Shown: positions 75-9,196 of the stretch, piece by piece
Position numbering within the stretch: position 1 is the first letter of the stretch
How the letters are laid out: each line of letters starts with the position of its first letter
Source of the DNA: Bythopirellula sp.
GTDB taxonomy: Bacteria > Planctomycetota > Planctomycetia > Pirellulales > Lacipirellulaceae
Direction: 5' to 3'
Assembly (NCBI GenBank): GCA_965216565.1
Contig: OZ244170.1
Location: forward strand, 3,360,001 to 3,424,000
DNA length: 64,000 nucleotides
Position numbers and translations under genes: made by a program
The notes under the pieces: generated by a model
What the model saw: only the letters and a program-made list of their open reading frames with translations
What the model was told of the DNA's origin: nothing
Databases searched by the model: none

Positions 75-3000
75 ATGGATTCGCTACAAGGAAGTCCAGA
101 GAACCAAGATACTATTCCTTTTGTTGTCGGAATTGGTGCATCAGCAGGTGGGCTAGAAGCCTTAGAAGAGTTCTTCCGAAACGTGAAGGAAGATTCCGGA
201 TTGTCATATGTTGTGGTCCAACATTTGTCACCCGATTTTGAAAGCTTAATGGACCAATTGCTTGCGCGGACGACTAACTTACCCATTAAGCTGATAGAAA
301 ATGAACAGGAAATCTTAGAGAACACCATCTACCTGCTGCCTCCCAAAAAGGAGGTCATCCTTTCCGAGGGCAAGCTCCTACTGACCGATCGCCCTAAGGG
401 ACGTGAACTGTCCTACCCCATCGACAACTTCTTTCGCTCCCTAGCCCAAGACATTGGACCGGCGGCAATCGCTGTTGTCCTTTCCGGCACAGGAAGTGAC
501 GGTTCGCGGGGTATCGTCGATGTGCACGAATCTGGAGGGTTCGTCCTTGTTCAGAGCGAAGCCTCTGCCCGCTTCGATGGCATGCCCCGAAGTGCGTGCG
601 ACACGGGAATTGTGGATGCCATACTATCTGCCTCAGAAATGGCGGAGGCAATTGAACGATACACGCAAAGCTCGATTGGACTGGGGCGCAGAGCCGATCT
701 ACTCGACCCACAGAGAACCAAAGGCCCTACGTTTGCGATTCTCAATTTATTGAAGAAGAGCTATGAAATCGACTTCAGCCACTACAAAACCAATACGATT
801 TCTCGGCGCATCGAGCGACGGGTTCTGCTCAGCGGTTCAGAGAATGTCAGCACGTATGCCAAACGCCTTCGGACCGATGACAAAGAACTTGATTCGCTCT
901 ATAAGGACTTGCTGATCGGCGTAACGGGATTCTTCAGAGATAGCGAAGTCTTTCAGAGCCTGGAATCCGAGGTCATCCCGAAGCTGATTGAAAATATCGA
1001 TAGCGAGCAGGAAATCAGGGTTTGGGTTGTTGCCACGGCTACCGGGGAGGAGGCCTACTCGATTGCAATCTTGCTAAATGAAGCCTACGAAAAAAGTGGC
1101 AAGGTACCTCGAGTCAAAATCTTTGCCTCGGACGTTCACCATGAGTCGCTGGAACATGCCAGCCGAGGCATTTATCAGGAAGAGAGCTTAGGGGGCCTCA
1201 CTCCCGAAAGGAGAGAGAGGTATTTTGAAGAAAGGCTTGATGGCTTTCACGCTTCGCCTGAGCTACGCAAGATGGTGGTCTTCGTGCCCCATAATGTCAT
1301 CTTCAATGCACCATTTACCAATCTAGATCTGATTACATGTCGCAACTTGTTCATCTATCTAACTCCCTCGACACAAAAAAAGGTTCTATCGCTGTTCCAC
1401 TTCGGCTTGAAGACCGGAGGTTGCCTATGCTTGGGTTCTAGTGAAACGCCCGGGGAGCTCTCGCACGAATTTGAAGCTATTGACGAAAAGAGTCGCATCT
1501 ATCGCAAGCATCGCGATGTAAATTTGCCTGCCAGTATGCGGATGCCATTCTCTAGTTCACCACTTTCACTGCCTCCAATCAGCACGACTGCAACTGAGAC
1601 TCAGCCTGCCGGCATGCGGAAGCTGATGGGAACCTATGACGTATTGCTAGACAAGTACTTACCGCCCTCCCTGCTTCTTTCGCAGGAACACGAGCTCTTG
1701 CATACTTTTGGAGATGCTTCGAGCTACATGCGAGTGCCGAGAGGTCGGCCTCCCCGCAATGCACTCGACCTGTTGAACCCAGCACTTAAGTCAGCCGCAT
1801 CGGCAGCAGTTCGGCGATCGAAACAAGAGGGTTCCGCTGCTTGCTATGCCAAGCTACCAATGGCTAACAGTGATACCGAGCAGCATCTCCGTATCTCCGC
1901 CGAGGTATTCACAGAGCAAGACAACCAAATACTGGTCTGCTTTTCACTAGAAGACGAAGTCACTATCGCAAACAGGCCTGCGGTAGAGATTGGGCATGCT
2001 GATATCACCTCAGAAGAGTACGACGCACTAGAAAGAGAATTAGCACGCACCCAAGCAAACCTCCAATCCACTGTAGAGGAAGCTCAAACCACCAACGAAG
2101 AACTCCAGGCCGCCAACGAGCAGCTCACTGCATCGAACGAAGAATTGCAGAGCACAAACGAGGAGCTTCACAGCGTTAACGAAGAGCTCTACACAGTCAA
2201 CGCAGAGCACCAGAGAAAAATCGATGAGCTAATCGAACTCACCGACGACATGGACAATCTGCTTAACAGCACAAACATCCACACAATTTTCCTAGACCGC
2301 CAGCTACGGATTCGTCGATTCACTCCCGGAATCCGTGAAACGTTCAACTTATTGAGTCAAGACGTAGGTCGACCTTTCGGTTCGTTCACACATAACATCA
2401 ATCACGACAATCTAGCCAGGCTTGCTGAAAGCGTGATCGACTCCAAGTCGTCCGTCGAGCAGGAAGTCCAAGATAAGAACGACCATTGGTACCTACTTCG
2501 AATTCTGCCCTATCAAACGAGAGGCCAGGTTGACGGGGCAGTCCTAACCCTCATCGATATCACTTCGTTGAAACAAGCAGAGTCGAAGCTGGCCGAATTG
2601 TCGGAAATCGTAGAGCATTCGGACGATGCGATTTTCCGACAGGACATTGACGGTACAATTCGCACTTGGAACCGTGGAGCAGAGCGGCTCTTTGCTATCA
2701 AAGCCCCTAAGGTTCTGGGAGGACACGTCGAAATGCTCGGCCTCGATTGCCGAGATATTGCATTCAATAAGATTCTAAAACTCACCGCCAGCGGCGAATC
2801 GCTCGACCACATCGAAGCCCGACACAAACGCCAAGATGGCGATTTCGTCGATATCGCGATCTCGGTTTCTCCAATTCGAGATGTCAACGGCAATGTCATC
2901 GGAGCGTCTACCATTGCCCGGGATGTCACTCGACAGAAGCAAGCAGAGGCAGAAGTCCGCGAAGCGGTTAAACGACGCGATGATTTCCTTGCGATGCTTT

Positions 3001-4070
3001 CGCACGAATTGCGTAATCCATTAGCTGCCGTTCTCAATGCTACCAATCTAATGACAGAAATCGGCCTTCAAGAAAAACCAATCGAAGAAGCCAAAGACGT
3101 GATCGAACACAATGTTCGGCACGTCGCTCGTATCCTTGATGATCTACTCGACGTGTCGCGAATAGCAAACGACAAGATCAACTTGCACAAAGAAGTCGTT
3201 GACCTGTGCTCCCTAACGATTGATGTTGTCGAATGCGTCCAGCACCGCATTGATGACAAAGGGCAGGAACTACACGTCCATCAGCCGCCCGAACCGTTGT
3301 ACGTGGAGGGAGATGTTGGTCGTTTGCAGCAGATGCAAGTCAATTTGTTGGTAAACGCATCGAAGTATACGGCTGAGGGAGGACGCATCGAATATGAAGT
3401 CTATCAAGACGGCGATGAAGCTATCATATCGGTCACGGACAATGGCGTTGGGATCCCAGAGAGCTTATTGAATACGATTTTTGAGCCGTTCGTACAGGCA
3501 GAACAAACAATCGACCGAGCACAAGGAGGCATGGGCCTGGGGCTTACCTTAGTTAGCAAAGTAGCCGAGGCACATGGTGGCAGTGTCTCTGCAAATAGTG
3601 ATGGAAATGGCATGGGAAGTTGTTTCTCCATCATTTTGCCTATCACCAGGAAGCGTCCAAAGTCTCAGGTGCAAACAGAGCTTACCGAGATCGATGGCTT
3701 GAAGCTGGTCATTGTCGAAGACAATGACGGCGTGCGAAACATGCTTGCGCGGACCCTCGAACTGAAAGGCTTTGTCGTTGCCACAGCAGCAACAGGCCGC
3801 GAAGGAATTGAGTTGATTCAGCAGATGCATCCCACCGTTGCGGTGATTGATATCGGTCTCCCCGACCTCAATGGCTATGAGGTAGCTAATGAGATTCGTG
3901 ATGATCCCGAACTTCAAAACGTGCTAAAGGTGGCTCTTACGGGCTACGGGCGGGATCGAGATCAACAGAAAGCAATGCAAGCTGGGTTTGACATTCACCT
4001 TGTAAAGCCGCTCGACCCCGACGAATTGCTTCGCGCCGTCGCCGAAAAGTATGTCGCCATTACAAGCTAG
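75..4070 (+). CDS. CheB methylesterase-CheR methyltransferase-coiled coil-PAS-histidine kinase-receiver hybrid
   Basis: GASAGG/VQHL/GSDG (CheB triad), IGVTGFFRD and ATATGEEAYS (CheR), EELQ heptads, PAS segments, LSHELRNPL H-box, GMGLGL G-box, C-terminal receiver (IDIGLP...VKP). Confidence 0.93.
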   Translation: MDSLQGSPENQDTIPFVVGIGASAGGLEALEEFFRNVKEDSGLSYVVVQHLSPDFESLMDQLLARTTNLPIKLIENEQEILENTIYLLPPKKEVILSEGKLLLTDRPKGRELSYPIDNFFRSLAQDIGPAAIAVVLSGTGSDGSRGIVDVHESGGFVLVQSEASARFDGMPRSACDTGIVDAILSASEMAEAIERYTQSSIGLGRRADLLDPQRTKGPTFAILNLLKKSYEIDFSHYKTNTISRRIERRVLLSGSENVSTYAKRLRTDDKELDSLYKDLLIGVTGFFRDSEVFQSLESEVIPKLIENIDSEQEIRVWVVATATGEEAYSIAILLNEAYEKSGKVPRVKIFASDVHHESLEHASRGIYQEESLGGLTPERRERYFEERLDGFHASPELRKMVVFVPHNVIFNAPFTNLDLITCRNLFIYLTPSTQKKVLSLFHFGLKTGGCLCLGSSETPGELSHEFEAIDEKSRIYRKHRDVNLPASMRMPFSSSPLSLPPISTTATETQPAGMRKLMGTYDVLLDKYLPPSLLLSQEHELLHTFGDASSYMRVPRGRPPRNALDLLNPALKSAASAAVRRSKQEGSAACYAKLPMANSDTEQHLRISAEVFTEQDNQILVCFSLEDEVTIANRPAVEIGHADITSEEYDALERELARTQANLQSTVEEAQTTNEELQAANEQLTASNEELQSTNEELHSVNEELYTVNAEHQRKIDELIELTDDMDNLLNSTNIHTIFLDRQLRIRRFTPGIRETFNLLSQDVGRPFGSFTHNINHDNLARLAESVIDSKSSVEQEVQDKNDHWYLLRILPYQTRGQVDGAVLTLIDITSLKQAESKLAELSEIVEHSDDAIFRQDIDGTIRTWNRGAERLFAIKAPKVLGGHVEMLGLDCRDIAFNKILKLTASGESLDHIEARHKRQDGDFVDIAISVSPIRDVNGNVIGASTIARDVTRQKQAEAEVREAVKRRDDFLAMLSHELRNPLAAVLNATNLMTEIGLQEKPIEEAKDVIEHNVRHVARILDDLLDVSRIANDKINLHKEVVDLCSLTIDVVECVQHRIDDKGQELHVHQPPEPLYVEGDVGRLQQMQVNLLVNASKYTAEGGRIEYEVYQDGDEAIISVTDNGVGIPESLLNTIFEPFVQAEQTIDRAQGGMGLGLTLVSKVAEAHGGSVSANSDGNGMGSCFSIILPITRKRPKSQVQTELTEIDGLKLVIVEDNDGVRNMLARTLELKGFVVATAATGREGIELIQQMHPTVAVIDIGLPDLNGYEVANEIRDDPELQNVLKVALTGYGRDRDQQKAMQAGFDIHLVKPLDPDELLRAVAEKYVAITS

Positions 4071-4170
4071 CTTTCCGAATTCTATTTGACAGGCTATTCT
4101 TCAGACGTCTTACCGGCTCAAGTTGCGTTGCCAACATCCTACACTCACAACATCCAACTGGTGCACACCT

Positions 4171-5427
4171 TTGAACACGACTCGTAGAACTGCGTTGAAA
4201 GGAATCATCGGTTCTGGTGTGACATTCGGAACCGCTCCCTATGCCTTCGCTAAACGAAAACACACGCTTCGAGTGTTGGGGACGCATGTCACACTGCAGG
4301 AGGCACTCCGCAAGCAGGCTGAAAAAGACTTAGGTATTTCTATCGAGTTTCAGCCCGGTGGTAGCGCCAGAGTCTTGCACCAGGCATCCACACAACCCGA
4401 ATCGTTCGACCTTTACGAACAATGGTCGAACAGCATCAAAGTGCTTTGGCAAGCGGGGGCCATTCAATCCATCGACGTAGAGCGTTTGACGTATTGGAAA
4501 GAGATAAACAATCTCACCAAAACAGGACAACTAACTCCTGCTGCAAACACTGGTGCCGGCGATGCTCCTAATAAACTACTATTCGTTCAAGAAAACAATG
4601 CGCTCGGCGATAACACAACCGGCAACATCAGCTTCCTGCCCTACGTTCACAATGTCGACTCGTTTGGTTACGATGCGGGCATTGTAGATCGTGGGGTCCC
4701 ATATGAAACCGAAAGTTGGGGCTGGCTCTTTGATGACCAGTGGCAAGGTCGTGTAGCACTGGTGAATGCTCCAACTATTGGACTCTTCGACGCAGCCCTC
4801 GGTGCGCAATCGAGGGGACTGGCTGAATTTGCAGACATCGGCAATATGACTAAGCCGGAAATTGATTCCCTGTTCCGGTTACTCGTCGACTTGCGGCGGC
4901 AAGGACACTTCCGTGGCATCTGGAGCAGCGTGCCACGCTCGGTAGAGCTTATGAAGCGAGGCGAAGTCGTCATCGAAAGCATGTTCTCGCCCGGCGTATT
5001 TGCCCTCAAAGGCGAAGGAATCGATTGCGTCTATGCATCGCCTAAAGAAGGCTATCGTGCCTGGCACGGCGTGATGTGCCTTTCCTCGCAGACCGAAGGC
5101 AGCGCCAAAGACATGGCCTACGAGTACATGAATTGGTGGCTTTCCGGCTGGCCTGGGGCGTTTATCGCTCGGCAAGGTTATTACATTTCCAATCCCGAAC
5201 GAGCCCGTACTCATTTAAGCAACGACGAATGGGATTATTGGTACGAAGGCAAACCTGCCCGCTCCGATCTTTTGGGCACCGATGGGAAGGTGGTCGTCAA
5301 ACAAAACGAAGTGCGCGATGGTGGGTCCTACACACGTCGGTTCAGTAATATCGCAGTGTGGAATACGGTGATGGACAACTACGAATACACGTTACAGGCG
5401 TGGAACGAATTTCTTTCCGCAGTATAA
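4171..5427 (+). CDS. PotD/PotF-like extracellular solute-binding protein with Tat-like signal
   Basis: TRRTALKG twin-arginine-like motif after TTG at 4171 (ORF extends to 4123); SWGWLFD, YASPKEGYRAW and AYEYMNWW segments resemble polyamine-type SBPs. Confidence 0.8.
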   Translation: MNTTRRTALKGIIGSGVTFGTAPYAFAKRKHTLRVLGTHVTLQEALRKQAEKDLGISIEFQPGGSARVLHQASTQPESFDLYEQWSNSIKVLWQAGAIQSIDVERLTYWKEINNLTKTGQLTPAANTGAGDAPNKLLFVQENNALGDNTTGNISFLPYVHNVDSFGYDAGIVDRGVPYETESWGWLFDDQWQGRVALVNAPTIGLFDAALGAQSRGLAEFADIGNMTKPEIDSLFRLLVDLRRQGHFRGIWSSVPRSVELMKRGEVVIESMFSPGVFALKGEGIDCVYASPKEGYRAWHGVMCLSSQTEGSAKDMAYEYMNWWLSGWPGAFIARQGYYISNPERARTHLSNDEWDYWYEGKPARSDLLGTDGKVVVKQNEVRDGGSYTRRFSNIAVWNTVMDNYEYTLQAWNEFLSAV

Positions 5428-5445
5428 TCTCTGCAATCTCAAGCT

Positions 5446-7290
5446 ATGCCAACTCAGTCTCTCAAATCGAAAATATTTGCTGGATTTGCAATCATTGTAC
5501 TATTGCTGATCGCTAATGGGATTGTTTCCTATTTGGGCCTTGAGCATGTTCGCTCTGACAACTCCCGTCTAAGTCAGGTCGAGGCAACCCGCAACACGAT
5601 CCAACGCATCGACCGAGACGTGCAGGAACTGAAACTACGCGTCGCGCGTTATGTTTCGACTGGATACGATTCCCAACGAGAGGAAGCGCACCTCCTCTAT
5701 CAGCGCTTGATCGATAACCTGGACGCTGCTAAGGAGAGGGAACTGGAACCTACGACGTTGCAATTACTCGATCAAATTGGCGGCCATTTGCAGGAATACT
5801 CGAAACAATTCGAATTGGTCACCCAGGAACGAAGCCTTCGCGAAAAACTCGTCAATGTAGAACTTTCCTCCCAAGCAGAAGATGTCGCTAAAGGATTCTC
5901 TCAATTAGCTTCCTTCTCGGATTTAAACGAATTGTCAGACTCTGCACTGCTGGAAATGCTGCAAGTCCAGGCCTTGTTTACAGAAGCTGAGCAATCTCTG
6001 CTGCGGTACTTTGAAACTCCCGATTCCCTGCATGCTAGTTCTTTCGTTCGCTCAATCAACGCCACCATCTCTGGAGTAGAGTCAACAGAAGGGCCCAAAG
6101 AGGCTCTGAACTCCCTAGTCGAGTCGGTTCAACAGTTTGAACGTCTCGGCATCCGTGCCATTCAGGCTACAAGAAGCTATATGTTTCTCTTAAATGTTGT
6201 GATGTCAGGAGAGGCCTCGGAGATTTCCTATTACTCCCGTGTGCTGAGTGATCGTGCTGAGCAAAGCCGCGACGAAATTTCTGCCCGCGTGGCTGCCACG
6301 AGTAGTCGCGTGAAAAGGACGACGGGCTTCACCGTTCTAGCCGCCATTATTCTTTCCAGCTTGATCGCAGGTCGACTGGGAATGCTTATCGTCCCCCCCA
6401 TTACCGCACTCACAAAGGCATTTGGCCAACTTTCCTCTGGCGAAACGCTACACGAAATTCCTGGCACCGAAAGACACGACGAAATTGGCCAAATGGCGCA
6501 GGCCGCGAAAGTCTTCAATAGCCAAAACCTAAAAACTCGCGAACTCCTGGCCGAATCCGAGCAGCTTAGTAACGAATTACAGGAACAAGCGTTGGAACTA
6601 GAGTTGATGAACCAAGACTTAGACAGTTTTGCGTACGTCGCATCGCACGATCTCAAATCTCCTTTACGAGGAATCCGACAGTTAGCCACCTGGATAGAGG
6701 AAGACGCCGGGCAACACCTGCCGGCAGAATCTGCCAAACACCTAGAGCTATTGAAGTCCCGCATCACAAAAATGGAAACACTCTTAGAAGACCTACTCGA
6801 GTTTTCGAGAGTGGGCCGTATTGAGCCAACCGCCGAGGAAGTCGATCTCTCTGAAATGATGCAGTCCCTGGTTGATTTGACCGACAACCCAAATCGCGTT
6901 GAAGTGCAGTGGGCCAATGATATGCCCACCTTCAACACATTGCGAGCACCTCTGGAACAAGTTCTATTAAACCTCATTGGCAATGCTATAAAACACAATC
7001 ACCGGGACTCACACGGACGCGTCGACATCGAGTGCCACGAAATTGGCGACCGGTACAGGTTTATGGTAAAAGACAATGGTCCAGGAATTCACAAGAATGA
7101 CCATGAACGCGTGTTCCAAATGTATCAGAGAGTCGGGGACACAAGTATCGAAGGCAGTGGTATGGGGCTGGCGATAGTGAAAAAACAGATTGAACATCTT
7201 GGCGGGGAAGTCACGCTCGACTCTCAGCTGGGAGAGGGAACAACTTTTGAATTCACCTGGCCTGCAACAATAGAAAACACTCAGGCGTAA
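5446..7290 (+). CDS. Membrane sensor histidine kinase with HAMP domain
   Basis: Two TM helices flanking a helical periplasmic domain, HAMP (RHDEIGQMA), ASHDLKSPL H-box, NLIGNA, DNGPG, GSGMGL. Confidence 0.93.
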   Translation: MPTQSLKSKIFAGFAIIVLLLIANGIVSYLGLEHVRSDNSRLSQVEATRNTIQRIDRDVQELKLRVARYVSTGYDSQREEAHLLYQRLIDNLDAAKERELEPTTLQLLDQIGGHLQEYSKQFELVTQERSLREKLVNVELSSQAEDVAKGFSQLASFSDLNELSDSALLEMLQVQALFTEAEQSLLRYFETPDSLHASSFVRSINATISGVESTEGPKEALNSLVESVQQFERLGIRAIQATRSYMFLLNVVMSGEASEISYYSRVLSDRAEQSRDEISARVAATSSRVKRTTGFTVLAAIILSSLIAGRLGMLIVPPITALTKAFGQLSSGETLHEIPGTERHDEIGQMAQAAKVFNSQNLKTRELLAESEQLSNELQEQALELELMNQDLDSFAYVASHDLKSPLRGIRQLATWIEEDAGQHLPAESAKHLELLKSRITKMETLLEDLLEFSRVGRIEPTAEEVDLSEMMQSLVDLTDNPNRVEVQWANDMPTFNTLRAPLEQVLLNLIGNAIKHNHRDSHGRVDIECHEIGDRYRFMVKDNGPGIHKNDHERVFQMYQRVGDTSIEGSGMGLAIVKKQIEHLGGEVTLDSQLGEGTTFEFTWPATIENTQA

Positions 7291-7296
7291 CGATTT

Positions 7297-7731
7297 ATGA
7301 ACCCTGGTACTCTCACAGTCTTAGTCGTGGACGATGACGTTGTTGACGTAGAAATCGTTGAGCGTGGGACAAGACAACGCAATTTGCCCTGCGAAATGAG
7401 GTCTATGCCAGATGGCCGGCATGCGCTGGAATTCTTGCGAAGTGACTCGTTGACGGAGGATCAGCGAGAACGATTAGCGATTGTTCTCGACATAAATATG
7501 CCAGGCATGAATGGCCATCAATTTCTAGAAGAGTTACGCAAAGACCCTCAGCTGCGTCGTACTCTCGTGTTTGTCCTATCCACATCAGACCACGTACGCG
7601 ACAAATCAAAGGCCTACGACATGAACGTTGCGGGTTACTTTACCAAGCCAAACATTGACTCGCTAATCGATACATTGGAACTCTATGCTCAGCACGCTGA
7701 GTTCCCTCCTTGGCCAGGCGGACTAAACTAG
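7297..7731 (+). CDS. Single-domain response regulator (Rcp-like)
   Basis: VVDDD, LDINMP, LSTS, TKP receiver motifs; 6 bp after the kinase. Confidence 0.92.
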   Translation: MNPGTLTVLVVDDDVVDVEIVERGTRQRNLPCEMRSMPDGRHALEFLRSDSLTEDQRERLAIVLDINMPGMNGHQFLEELRKDPQLRRTLVFVLSTSDHVRDKSKAYDMNVAGYFTKPNIDSLIDTLELYAQHAEFPPWPGGLN

Positions 7732-7783
7732 CAAAAAAACGAGGCGGCAGCAGGAGAACCAATGGCTCCCCCACTACCGCCTC
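7732..7783 (-). terminator. Intrinsic terminator of the csrA-receiver transcript
   Basis: GAGGCGG...CCGCCTC stem followed on the minus strand by T7. Confidence 0.7.
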
Positions 7784-7866
7784 TTAGACCGAGTTGCTTC
7801 CATGCGGTACGCGGCTTCCGTGCCTTCCAGCGATTTACGAATAAATCCTGGCCCACCTGAACCCAG
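7732..7866 (-). ncRNA. Candidate CsrB/RsmY-like GGA-repeat sRNA or 3' UTR sponge
   Basis: Minus strand reads CCAGGAUU, GCUGGAAGGC, GGCACGGAAGCC, GCAUGGAAGC within about 60 nt, then a terminator; lies directly behind a CsrA-domain gene. Confidence 0.4.
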
Positions 7867-8667
7867 TCAAGCTCCGATCATCTCTCCCCTGCAACGCGCA
7901 CTGTCTCCAGGCACGTTAGCGTCGAAGGCAAGACGAAATACCAAGGCCTCGGGGTCGAGCGGTTTTGGAAACCAGCCATCGACACCTTCCGGCCCTACTT
8001 CCACGCCGTAGTCGGTGGGATCACCACCACTAACGGCAAATACTTTTAACGTTCGCAAACGGTTGTTCGCTCTCATCCGACGGATGGCTGTTGCACCATC
8101 CATCTTGGGCATTTGCATATCGAGCAGCACAATATCGGGCGTGCGATTGACGTCCAAGTAATCGAGCGCTTCCTGGCCGTTGCTGGCGAGATCGACGTCA
8201 TAACGCTTCGTTCTCAAATAACTGGCCAACAGTCGCGATTCGTTGGCGTTATCATCGACCAGAAGTGCGCGGGGCGATTTGCAATCTTCCCTCGGGGCTG
8301 AGGGGTTTTGCGACTTGCCAGAGGGACCGGCAGCAATTTGATTGTCAATTCCTTTCAGGTGATGGAATATCTCTAGCATCAAATGCTCTGTCTTGGCATC
8401 CTGCGTAGCATTAGATAATTCTTGCAGCTCTTGAAGTGCTTGCGTAGCGTTCTTCAAATGTAGATTCCGCTGGGCGTCTGAACTCGGATGCGAGATAGAG
8501 AAAGGCTCATTCTCTTCTCCTGCCAGTTCGTGACGTAGTACGCGAACATCACGAGGAGCATCTATGCCGACGCGTACCTTGTTGCCGTCAACACGCAAGA
8601 TCTGCACACTGATTCCTAAGCTCGGGAAGAGAATTTTATCGTCTTCCCGACGAGACAAGACCAACAT
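7867..8667 (-). CDS. CsrA (carbon storage regulator) domain fused to a C-terminal receiver domain
   Basis: MLVLSRR...VRVGIDAPRDVRVLRHEL CsrA signature; LLVDDN, LLDMQMP, FPKP receiver motifs. Confidence 0.9.
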   Translation of the reverse strand: MLVLSRREDDKILFPSLGISVQILRVDGNKVRVGIDAPRDVRVLRHELAGEENEPFSISHPSSDAQRNLHLKNATQALQELQELSNATQDAKTEHLMLEIFHHLKGIDNQIAAGPSGKSQNPSAPREDCKSPRALLVDDNANESRLLASYLRTKRYDVDLASNGQEALDYLDVNRTPDIVLLDMQMPKMDGATAIRRMRANNRLRTLKVFAVSGGDPTDYGVEVGPEGVDGWFPKPLDPEALVFRLAFDANVPGDSARCRGEMIGA

Positions 8668-9196
8668 CGGCGGTTTCCTTTCCTAGAGAGCAGCGTCCCT
8701 TAGTGTCAAATGTTTCTGCTACTCTCGATTCCATATTGGGGACGAGCCCGCGTTAGGTGGGAGAACTGGTTTCGCGGGTGCTTTGCAGGACAAAGCGTGT
8801 CTGGTTCGATGTGCCCAATCTTAGGAACGGATAACCGTCGAAAATCATATTCGTACATCGTGTCCGATCGAACGTGCGTAGATTCTGCACAGAACCACCC
8901 ATTCGTTCAACACCATTTTCGATTTAGTTTCGAAAAAAAATTTGCAGTATTGCTAGCGTATGGCAATGCAGTTTTGGGGTTGATTCGACGGTGCCCTTGC
9001 GCAGGAAAACAGAGGCATCTAACCGTTCATGCGGCGCGACCAATCGAGAGATAGCTTCCATAGCTTGGGCCCGCTTCAATCTCATGAACATGAAATCGAG
9101 AACATTGCTTTTGCGATCCATGATCGTGAAGATACAATTCGGCAAGCTGGGTCCACATTGCTTCGAATCACCATTAACGCCTCCAGGAGGACTGTG

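What the first reader, a model, noticed from the sequence alone, without database searches (positions are those of the whole stretch)
7732..7866. Candidate CsrB/Rsm-like sponge RNA in the 3' UTR of a CsrA-receiver gene
Seen on the minus strand between the stop codon and the terminator: CCAGGAUU, GCUGGAAGGC, GGC-ACGGAA-GCC and GC-AUGGAA-GC, i.e. four GGA motifs, two of them ANGGA loops on short stems. Known: this is the architecture of CsrA-sequestering sRNAs in Gammaproteobacteria. Inference: a cis-encoded titrating RNA for the adjacent CsrA fusion; I know of none described in this phylum.
Basis: partly seen in the sequence, partly recalled or inferred. Interest (0 to 1): 0.75.

Follow-up and report, generated by a model that had tools for sequence, protein, structure and literature searches.

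The report
Two-site CsrA-binding RNA behind its gene
Right behind a planctomycete gene for an unusual RNA-binding regulator lies a small folded RNA, kept in many relatives, with two docking sites spaced to hold one pair of that regulator, which suggests these bacteria make the regulator together with its own RNA brake.

Summary
The element is real, but it is not a multi-site CsrB/RsmZ sponge. All four GGAs exist; two are base-paired or not conserved. The other two form a conserved module: closing stem, variable hairpin, an ANGGAN hairpin loop, a second ANGGA 18 nt downstream, then a 20-bp terminator. All 7 genes of the window gene's clade carry it. Among 116 CsrA-receiver genes, 25 have two ANGGA 17-24 nt apart behind the stop, against 1 on the reverse strand. 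The first site's stem changes sequence between lineages yet stays paired in 24 of 25. It is single-copy and has no Rfam match. Spacing and consensus fit one CsrA dimer, and the protein keeps the RNA-binding arginine. Best reading: a co-transcribed one-dimer decoy, RsmW-like in position and flaA-leader-like in anatomy (0.5). Main rival: cis control of the mRNA's stability (0.28). Binding and a separate transcript are untested. Most family genes lack the module. I found no planctomycete CsrA-binding RNA in the papers searched. This scan earlier noted the fusion protein, and a GGA-loop RNA, at a paralogue in the same genome.

The parts
7867..8667 (-). Host gene, 266 aa: CsrA domain (1-50), two-helix linker (63-112), receiver domain (135-244) with Asp183 and Lys235
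   Evidence: Pfam; alignment; AlphaFold model; PDB CsrA/RsmE matches
7860..7868 (-). P1 closing stem, 5' strand; overlaps the stop codon
   Evidence: folds; 88.9% of cells paired in 7 clade sequences
7853..7856 (-). P2, 5' strand (GUGG; GYGG/GCG in relatives)
   Evidence: 85.7% paired
7827..7851 (-).
7813..7824 (-). Site 1: GGC-ACGGAA-GCC hairpin with ANGGAN hexaloop
   Evidence: stem invariant in 7 of 7 clade members with both N positions varying; other stems in other lineages
7804..7807 (-). P2, 3' strand (CCGC), directly before site 2
7798..7803 (-). Site 2: AUGGAA (C-ANGGAN-G context), 18 nt after site 1
   Evidence: GCA-N-GGA invariant in 7 of 7; spacing peak 18-24 nt in the family
7787..7795 (-). 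P1 closing stem, 3' strand
7733..7783 (-). Intrinsic terminator: 20-pair hairpin 7783-7741 and 7-U tract ending 2 nt from the stop of the convergent receiver gene (7297-7731, +)
   Evidence: a terminator follows in all 7 clade members
8676..8700 (-). Leader of the host gene: ANGGA at 8700-8696 and ANGGA over the Shine-Dalgarno region at 8680-8676; candidate autoregulatory target
   Evidence: SD-overlapping ANGGA is family-wide, the 20-nt pair is not (1 of 24)

Best explanation
A structured RNA module in the 3' UTR of the csrA-receiver mRNA that binds one CsrA-type dimer through two ANGGA sites 18 nt apart, and serves as a co-transcribed decoy. Shown by comparison: conservation, structure, spacing, single copy, link to this gene family, intact RNA-binding arginine. 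Inferred: (1) it is made from the host gene's promoter and ends at the terminator; (2) the dimer docks on the hairpin-loop site and bridges to site 2; (3) P1 overlaps the stop codon, so it can close only on RNA that ribosomes have left; once closed, P1 and the terminator cap both ends, so the module would outlast the mRNA as a stable ~130-nt fragment; (4) the fragment holds part of the CsrA-receiver pool away from ANGGA-containing ribosome-binding sites, including its own, and so sets a threshold on a regulator that neighbouring CheB/CheR hybrid kinases probably phosphorylate.
For: 7 of 7 clade members keep both GGAs while flanking N positions vary. 25 of 116 family genes have an ANGGA pair 17-24 nt apart within 200 nt of the stop, 1 of 116 on the reverse strand. 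Among 43 genes with a detected terminator, ANGGA ranks first of 256 like patterns for two or more copies (19 of 43), against 21 of 431 control UTRs in this genome; pairs 14-30 nt apart 16 of 43 against 4 of 431, one of which is this element. Site-1 stem of 3 or more pairs in 24 of 25, background 16%, with at least five unrelated stem sequences. In 32 hand-picked elements ANGGA is unpaired (mean 0.77, n=63) and other GGA paired (0.21, n=84). Fresh set from another family of the class: 2 of 10 loci show the pair at 19 and 20 nt. The model finds one copy per genome, behind the orthologue, including held-out L052 at E 4e-8. Arg45 (= R44) in 116 of 116, not selected for. A CsrA dimer bridges sites best at about 18 nt or more (PMC7652899); the two-hexaloop, 21-nt flaA leader titrates CsrA (PMC4894983); RsmW is cut from the 3' UTR of a csrA-like gene and is more stable than its mRNA (bioRxiv 10.64898/2026.09.03.749296, abstract). 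In L054 P1 lies inside the extended reading frame and is kept with another sequence. Of 14 genomes with two or more fusion genes fetched, 10 have exactly one gene with the pair and none has two (my tally), and the carrier belongs to different protein clades; this suits a shared, trans-acting RNA.
Against: 91 of 116 family genes lack the pair, so it is optional. One dimer per transcript is a weak sponge unless the fragment accumulates. Within the 7-member clade covariation does not exceed shuffles (1 pair changed on both sides; 73-363 of 500 shuffles as high). The window element alone folds only modestly better than shuffles (z -1.3 to -1.8). The clade model scores the distant elements only weakly (E 0.06-0.7), so their homology rests on layout. 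Kin are not independent, so the counts overstate significance. The genome has 12 CsrA-domain genes, so the partner need not be the adjacent protein. CsrA homologues can fail on GGA targets despite conserved residues (PMC13443453, abstract passage).
Confidence: 0.5

Rival explanations
1. Cis-acting 3'-UTR control: the protein binds the two sites on its own mRNA and shields or exposes a nuclease entry point just before the terminator, a feedback on mRNA half-life with no free sRNA.
For: CsrA binds two GGA sites directly upstream of the CsrB terminator and blocks RNase E there (PMC5027483, passages): the same two-sites-then-terminator layout. The module is always at the 3' end of a fusion gene. 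No sigma-70-like promoter in 7000-9000, and no shared non-coding motif seen by eye upstream of P1.
Against: Only one paralogue per genome carries it, whichever clade it belongs to. In CsrB the cleavage site is unstructured, whereas here P1 pairs the stretch before the terminator.
Confidence: 0.28
2. An independent two-site sRNA from a promoter inside the end of the coding sequence, for example switched on by the neighbouring two-component genes as CsrB is by BarA-UvrY.
For: Self-contained fold with its own terminator; starts 45-100 nt after the stop in L052, L058, L060; histidine-kinase and receiver genes surround it.
Against: P1 overlaps the stop codon or lies in the reading frame in 6 of 7 clade members; no promoter-like site (alternative sigma factors not covered).
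Confidence: 0.12
3. Not a CsrA ligand: a ligand-sensing or other protein-binding RNA, a DNA site for a response regulator, or chance GGAs beside a terminator.
For: Three-way junction before a terminator resembles a riboswitch; CCGC of P2 could pair with the first bases of the terminator; spacing near 22 bp is about two DNA turns.
Against: No Rfam match; the gene past the terminator is convergent in the window; spacing varies 18-23; stems change while staying paired; strand-specific; the conserved letters are exactly the CsrA consensus, behind a csrA gene.
Confidence: 0.1

Closest known systems
RsmW of Pseudomonas aeruginosa (PMC4950607, passages; bioRxiv 10.64898/2026.09.03.749296, abstract and outline)
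   Same: GGA RNA of about 120-130 nt in the 3' UTR of a csrA-like gene, no terminator between gene and RNA
   Different: RsmW has 7 GGAs; PA4570 is only 16-17% identical to RsmA/RsmN and did not complement. Here the host has a clear CsrA domain fused to a receiver, and the RNA has two conserved sites inside a closing stem; different phylum
Campylobacter jejuni flaA leader (PMC4894983, passages)
   Same: Two CANGGANG-type sites about 20 nt apart, probably one dimer, mRNA-borne, titrates CsrA
   Different: flaA sites are in a 5' leader of a very abundant target mRNA; here they are 3' of the regulator's own gene and do not cover a ribosome-binding site
CsrB/CsrC, RsmX/Y/Z (PMC5027483, PMC7652899 passages; PMC13287468 abstract passage)
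   Same: ANGGA in loops, intrinsic terminator; the last two sites of CsrB also precede the terminator
   Different: Stand-alone genes with many sites and several dimers; no Rfam match here
FliW-CsrA partner switch
   Same: Control of CsrA outside gammaproteobacteria; this genome has fliW next to one stand-alone csrA
   Different: Protein antagonist; the single fliW lies about 3 Mb from the fusion gene

Membership tests
CsrB/RsmY/RsmZ sponge sRNAs | Many repeated GGA sites binding several dimers | tested here: not met
   Two conserved sites; the other two paired or not conserved
CsrB/RsmY/RsmZ sponge sRNAs | ANGGA exposed in loops or single strands | tested here: met
   Predicted unpaired 0.84 and 0.58 here; 0.77 against 0.21 over 32 elements; prediction only
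CsrB/RsmY/RsmZ sponge sRNAs | Match to an Rfam Csr/Rsm model | tested here: not met
   None at gathering score or among weak hits
CsrB/RsmY/RsmZ sponge sRNAs | Own promoter activated by BarA-UvrY / GacS-GacA | tested here: inconclusive
   No sigma-70-like site; no shared upstream motif by eye; GacA box and other sigma factors not searched
CsrB/RsmY/RsmZ sponge sRNAs | Intrinsic terminator | tested here: met
CsrB/RsmY/RsmZ sponge sRNAs | Binds CsrA and relieves repression of targets | not testable with these tools
   needs EMSA and reporters
RsmW-type 3'-UTR-derived Rsm RNA | Lies in the 3' UTR of a csrA-like gene with no terminator in between | tested here: met
RsmW-type 3'-UTR-derived Rsm RNA | Processed out as a stable discrete RNA | not testable with these tools
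   needs northern blot or dRNA-seq of a carrier
RsmW-type 3'-UTR-derived Rsm RNA | Sequence homology to RsmW | not tested
   no direct alignment made; 7 GGAs there against 2 conserved here
One-dimer CsrA site (flaA / hag / glgC leader type) | Two ANGGA about 18-21 nt apart, at least one in a hairpin loop, CANGGANG context | tested here: met
   18 nt here, 18-24 in the family; site-1 stem in 24 of 25
CsrA/RsmA protein family (host gene) | PF02599 domain with the RNA-binding arginine (R44) | tested here: met

The most novel reading that the evidence does not exclude
Planctomycetes run a self-contained Csr switch unlike the gammaproteobacterial one: one transcript makes both a phosphorylatable CsrA-receiver dimer and a dedicated one-dimer RNA partner. 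The RNA folds only after ribosomes clear the stop codon, loads one dimer, and phosphorylation by the adjacent CheB/CheR hybrid kinases shifts the dimer between this RNA and target leaders. Signal input would act on the protein-RNA complex itself rather than on sRNA transcription.
Probability: 0.2. Interest if true: 0.85.

Novelty: new variant of a known kind. Interest (0 to 1): 0.62.

Why it matters
Planctomycete genomes carry many CsrA paralogues (12 here), and in the papers searched nothing says how they are held in check beyond FliW, which here sits beside only one of them. This is a concrete, conserved, non-Rfam RNA candidate for that role, and comparative evidence that the fused CsrA-receiver proteins still read ANGGA. 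It gives a ready ligand (an 87-nt core with two mutable sites) for testing whether phosphorylation of the receiver gates RNA binding. It also extends the RsmW layout (csrA-like gene plus 3' RNA) to a distant phylum, in a minimal two-site form.

Tried and rejected
Bare two-site DNA pattern in metagenome contigs (92 matches) and viral contigs (120 matches, scan stopped at its limit): none lay near a CsrA-type gene; many metagenome hits looked like coding sequence by eye. The pattern without P1 and terminator is unspecific, and this scan added no members. Expression: no RNA holder listed; four guessed-RNA runs with the same species label gave only one 37-nt piece inside the gene; no evidence either way. 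Repeat or mobile element: one copy in the genome by BLAST and by model. Small ORF from the AUG in site 2: other members have ACG, AAG or AGG there. Two-site leader as a family trait: 1 of 24 element-bearing genes and 13 of 92 others. Pair counts on alignment A5 looked strong but were discarded: that alignment is fitted to the model and holds spurious hits. One search used a mis-registered structure string; one search is the valid count. Stand-alone csrA genes of this genome show no such 3' module (by eye). A paper search for a recalled Legionella CsrK/RsmK system gave nothing, so it is not used. The tree is the quick version, not the finished search.

Full report
Observation. The gene is a CsrA domain fused through two helices to a receiver domain. 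The genome has 12 CsrA-domain genes, three of them such fusions. Named relatives of the protein are planctomycetes. Four GGAs in 86 nt occur in 3.6-3.8% of genome windows and 2% of shuffles; two CANGGANG sites occur in 0.025% of 20,000 shuffles. Folding buries GGA1 (unpaired 0.00) and most of GGA2 (0.40) in a hairpin; GGA3 (0.84) and GGA4 (0.58) are open. No Rfam family matches the window or 11 related loci.

Conservation in the clade. I collected 116 distinct CsrA-receiver genes from the window's order (one locus had no full reading frame, and nine listed matches were not fetched). In a quick tree the window gene falls in a clade of 7 (SH-aLRT 91; 53-64% identity). All 7 carry the same 3' layout: closing stem P1, short helix P2, a hairpin of free sequence and length, GGC-ANGGAN-GCC, a linker, (C)GC-ANGGAN, the P1 3' strand, a terminator. 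In L052 the 3' strand of P1 is partly changed. Both GGAs and the preceding A are invariant while the N positions vary. On the unfitted alignment 90.5% of cells pair, but covariation does not exceed shuffles, since most columns are invariant or wobble. The sister rows L056 and L073 lack the pair. P1 overlaps the stop codon in five members. In L054 the reading frame runs through P1, P2 and P3, yet an equivalent P1 of different sequence still forms. A covariance model from five members finds one copy per genome, always behind the orthologue: 6 strong hits in 120 genomes of the family, one of them held out (E 4e-8), plus one marginal hit at E 0.049 that I did not inspect.

The wider family. Within 200 nt of the stop, 25 of 116 genes have two ANGGA 17-24 nt apart; the reverse strand gives 1 of 116; spacings peak at 18 and 22. 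One of the 25 (L219) looks accidental and is left out where I count 24. Of 43 genes with a detected terminator, 19 have two or more ANGGA in the UTR, the top rank among 256 patterns of that shape; 21 of 431 terminator-bounded UTRs of this genome do. Site 1 has a stem of three or more pairs in 24 of 25 (background 16%), built from unrelated sequences in different lineages: GGC/GCC, UCCC/GGGA, UUCC/GGAA, CCGC/GCGG, GAGA/UCUC. This is the best structural evidence. In 32 hand-picked elements ANGGA sites are unpaired and other GGAs paired. In ten fresh loci from another family of the class, two show the pair at 19 and 20 nt, and none on the reverse strand. Kin are not independent, but the module occurs in at least six separate protein clades. 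Against this, 91 of 116 genes lack the pair, some have one-site or wider-spaced versions (L011, L015, L016, L067, L070), and the clade model scores the distant elements only weakly. The fusion gene was found in 83 of 401 genomes of the order and 11 of 401 of a phylum-wide draw.

Context. The gene closes a signalling island: two CheB/CheR-kinase hybrids, further kinases and receivers, and a second CsrA-receiver paralogue 13 kb away (island labels are motif-based). Of 14 genomes with two or more fusion genes fetched, 10 have the pair behind exactly one and none behind two (my tally). The carrier belongs to one protein clade in the window's family and to another in family f24. The proteins keep the RNA-binding arginine in 116 of 116 (R44 essential per PMC7366521, passage). 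Their Shine-Dalgarno regions contain ANGGA in 104 of 111 against 373 of 1107 control genes, and GGAAAGGA in 36 of 111 against 2 of 1107. That suggests autoregulation, but strong Shine-Dalgarno sequences also read AAGGAG, and the control starts are crude.

Mechanism. A CsrA dimer bridges two sites 10-63 nt apart, best at about 18 nt or more (PMC7652899, passages). The Campylobacter flaA leader has two CANGGANG-like hexaloops 21 nt apart, probably binds one dimer, and titrates CsrA (PMC4894983, passages). The module matches that anatomy. [quoted passage not shown] I infer a co-transcribed one-dimer decoy whose closing stem forms once ribosomes leave the stop codon (0.5). The main rival is cis control of mRNA decay, as CsrA protects CsrB by binding two GGAs just before its terminator (PMC5027483, passages) (0.28). 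An internally promoted sRNA (0.12) and a non-CsrA function (0.10) remain. That the RNA binds a CsrA-type protein at all I put near 0.85-0.9. None of binding, transcript or processing is shown.

Novelty. Full-text searches combining CsrA with Planctomycetes, small RNA, GGA, receiver or output domain, and sponge terms (listings only) showed no paper on a planctomycete CsrA-binding RNA. A 2026 survey of CsrA homologues names Planctomycetota only for prevalence (PMC13443453, passages). Most subscription papers are outside the library, and I read no supplements; large RNA-motif screens could list this motif there. It is not a member of CsrB/RsmY/RsmZ by site number or model match. It works like a one-dimer CsrA site placed as RsmW is placed: a new variant of a known kind. 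I saw the HisKA-like helix there and two AAGGA 36 nt apart before a terminator. That note is not independent support.

Noticed in passing
window 8332-8481 (-), residues 63-112: The linker is a two-helix hairpin; paralogues L011 and L012 match HisKA weakly and keep an H-box histidine (86 of 116 family members by motif), which all 7 members of the window gene's clade have lost.
   Followed up: partly
G000:C1:1502990-1503088 (+): Leader of a stand-alone csrA with a dense cluster of about seven GGAs, more CsrB-like in density than the finding itself.
   Followed up: no
G000:C1:302768-303384 (+): fliW directly upstream of one csrA: the flagellar FliW-CsrA pair; the other 11 CsrA-domain genes have no fliW beside them.
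   Followed up: partly
G000:C1 near 3434159 (+), 4439813 (+), 2524410 (-): Intergenic stretches rich in ACGGA/CAGGA/AUGGA, some palindromic; could be repeats or further CsrA-binding RNAs.
   Followed up: no
G000:C1:3350000-3369900 (L447), incl. window 75-7731: Conserved island of two CheB/CheR-kinase hybrids flanked by two CsrA-receiver paralogues; in this genome a solute-binding protein, kinase and receiver are inserted before the convergent fusion gene.
   Followed up: partly
G000:C1:2179800-2180830 (L011): Third fusion paralogue has several ANGGA in its leader and a variant 3' element with two AAGGA 36 nt apart and a terminator.
   Followed up: partly
L448:8396 (+): An ANGGA pair near the start of a CheB/CheR hybrid kinase in a relative; possible target site.
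   Followed up: no
G000:C1 near 313600 (+): Tandem array of about 15 copies of a 7-nt unit containing AUGGA.
   Followed up: no
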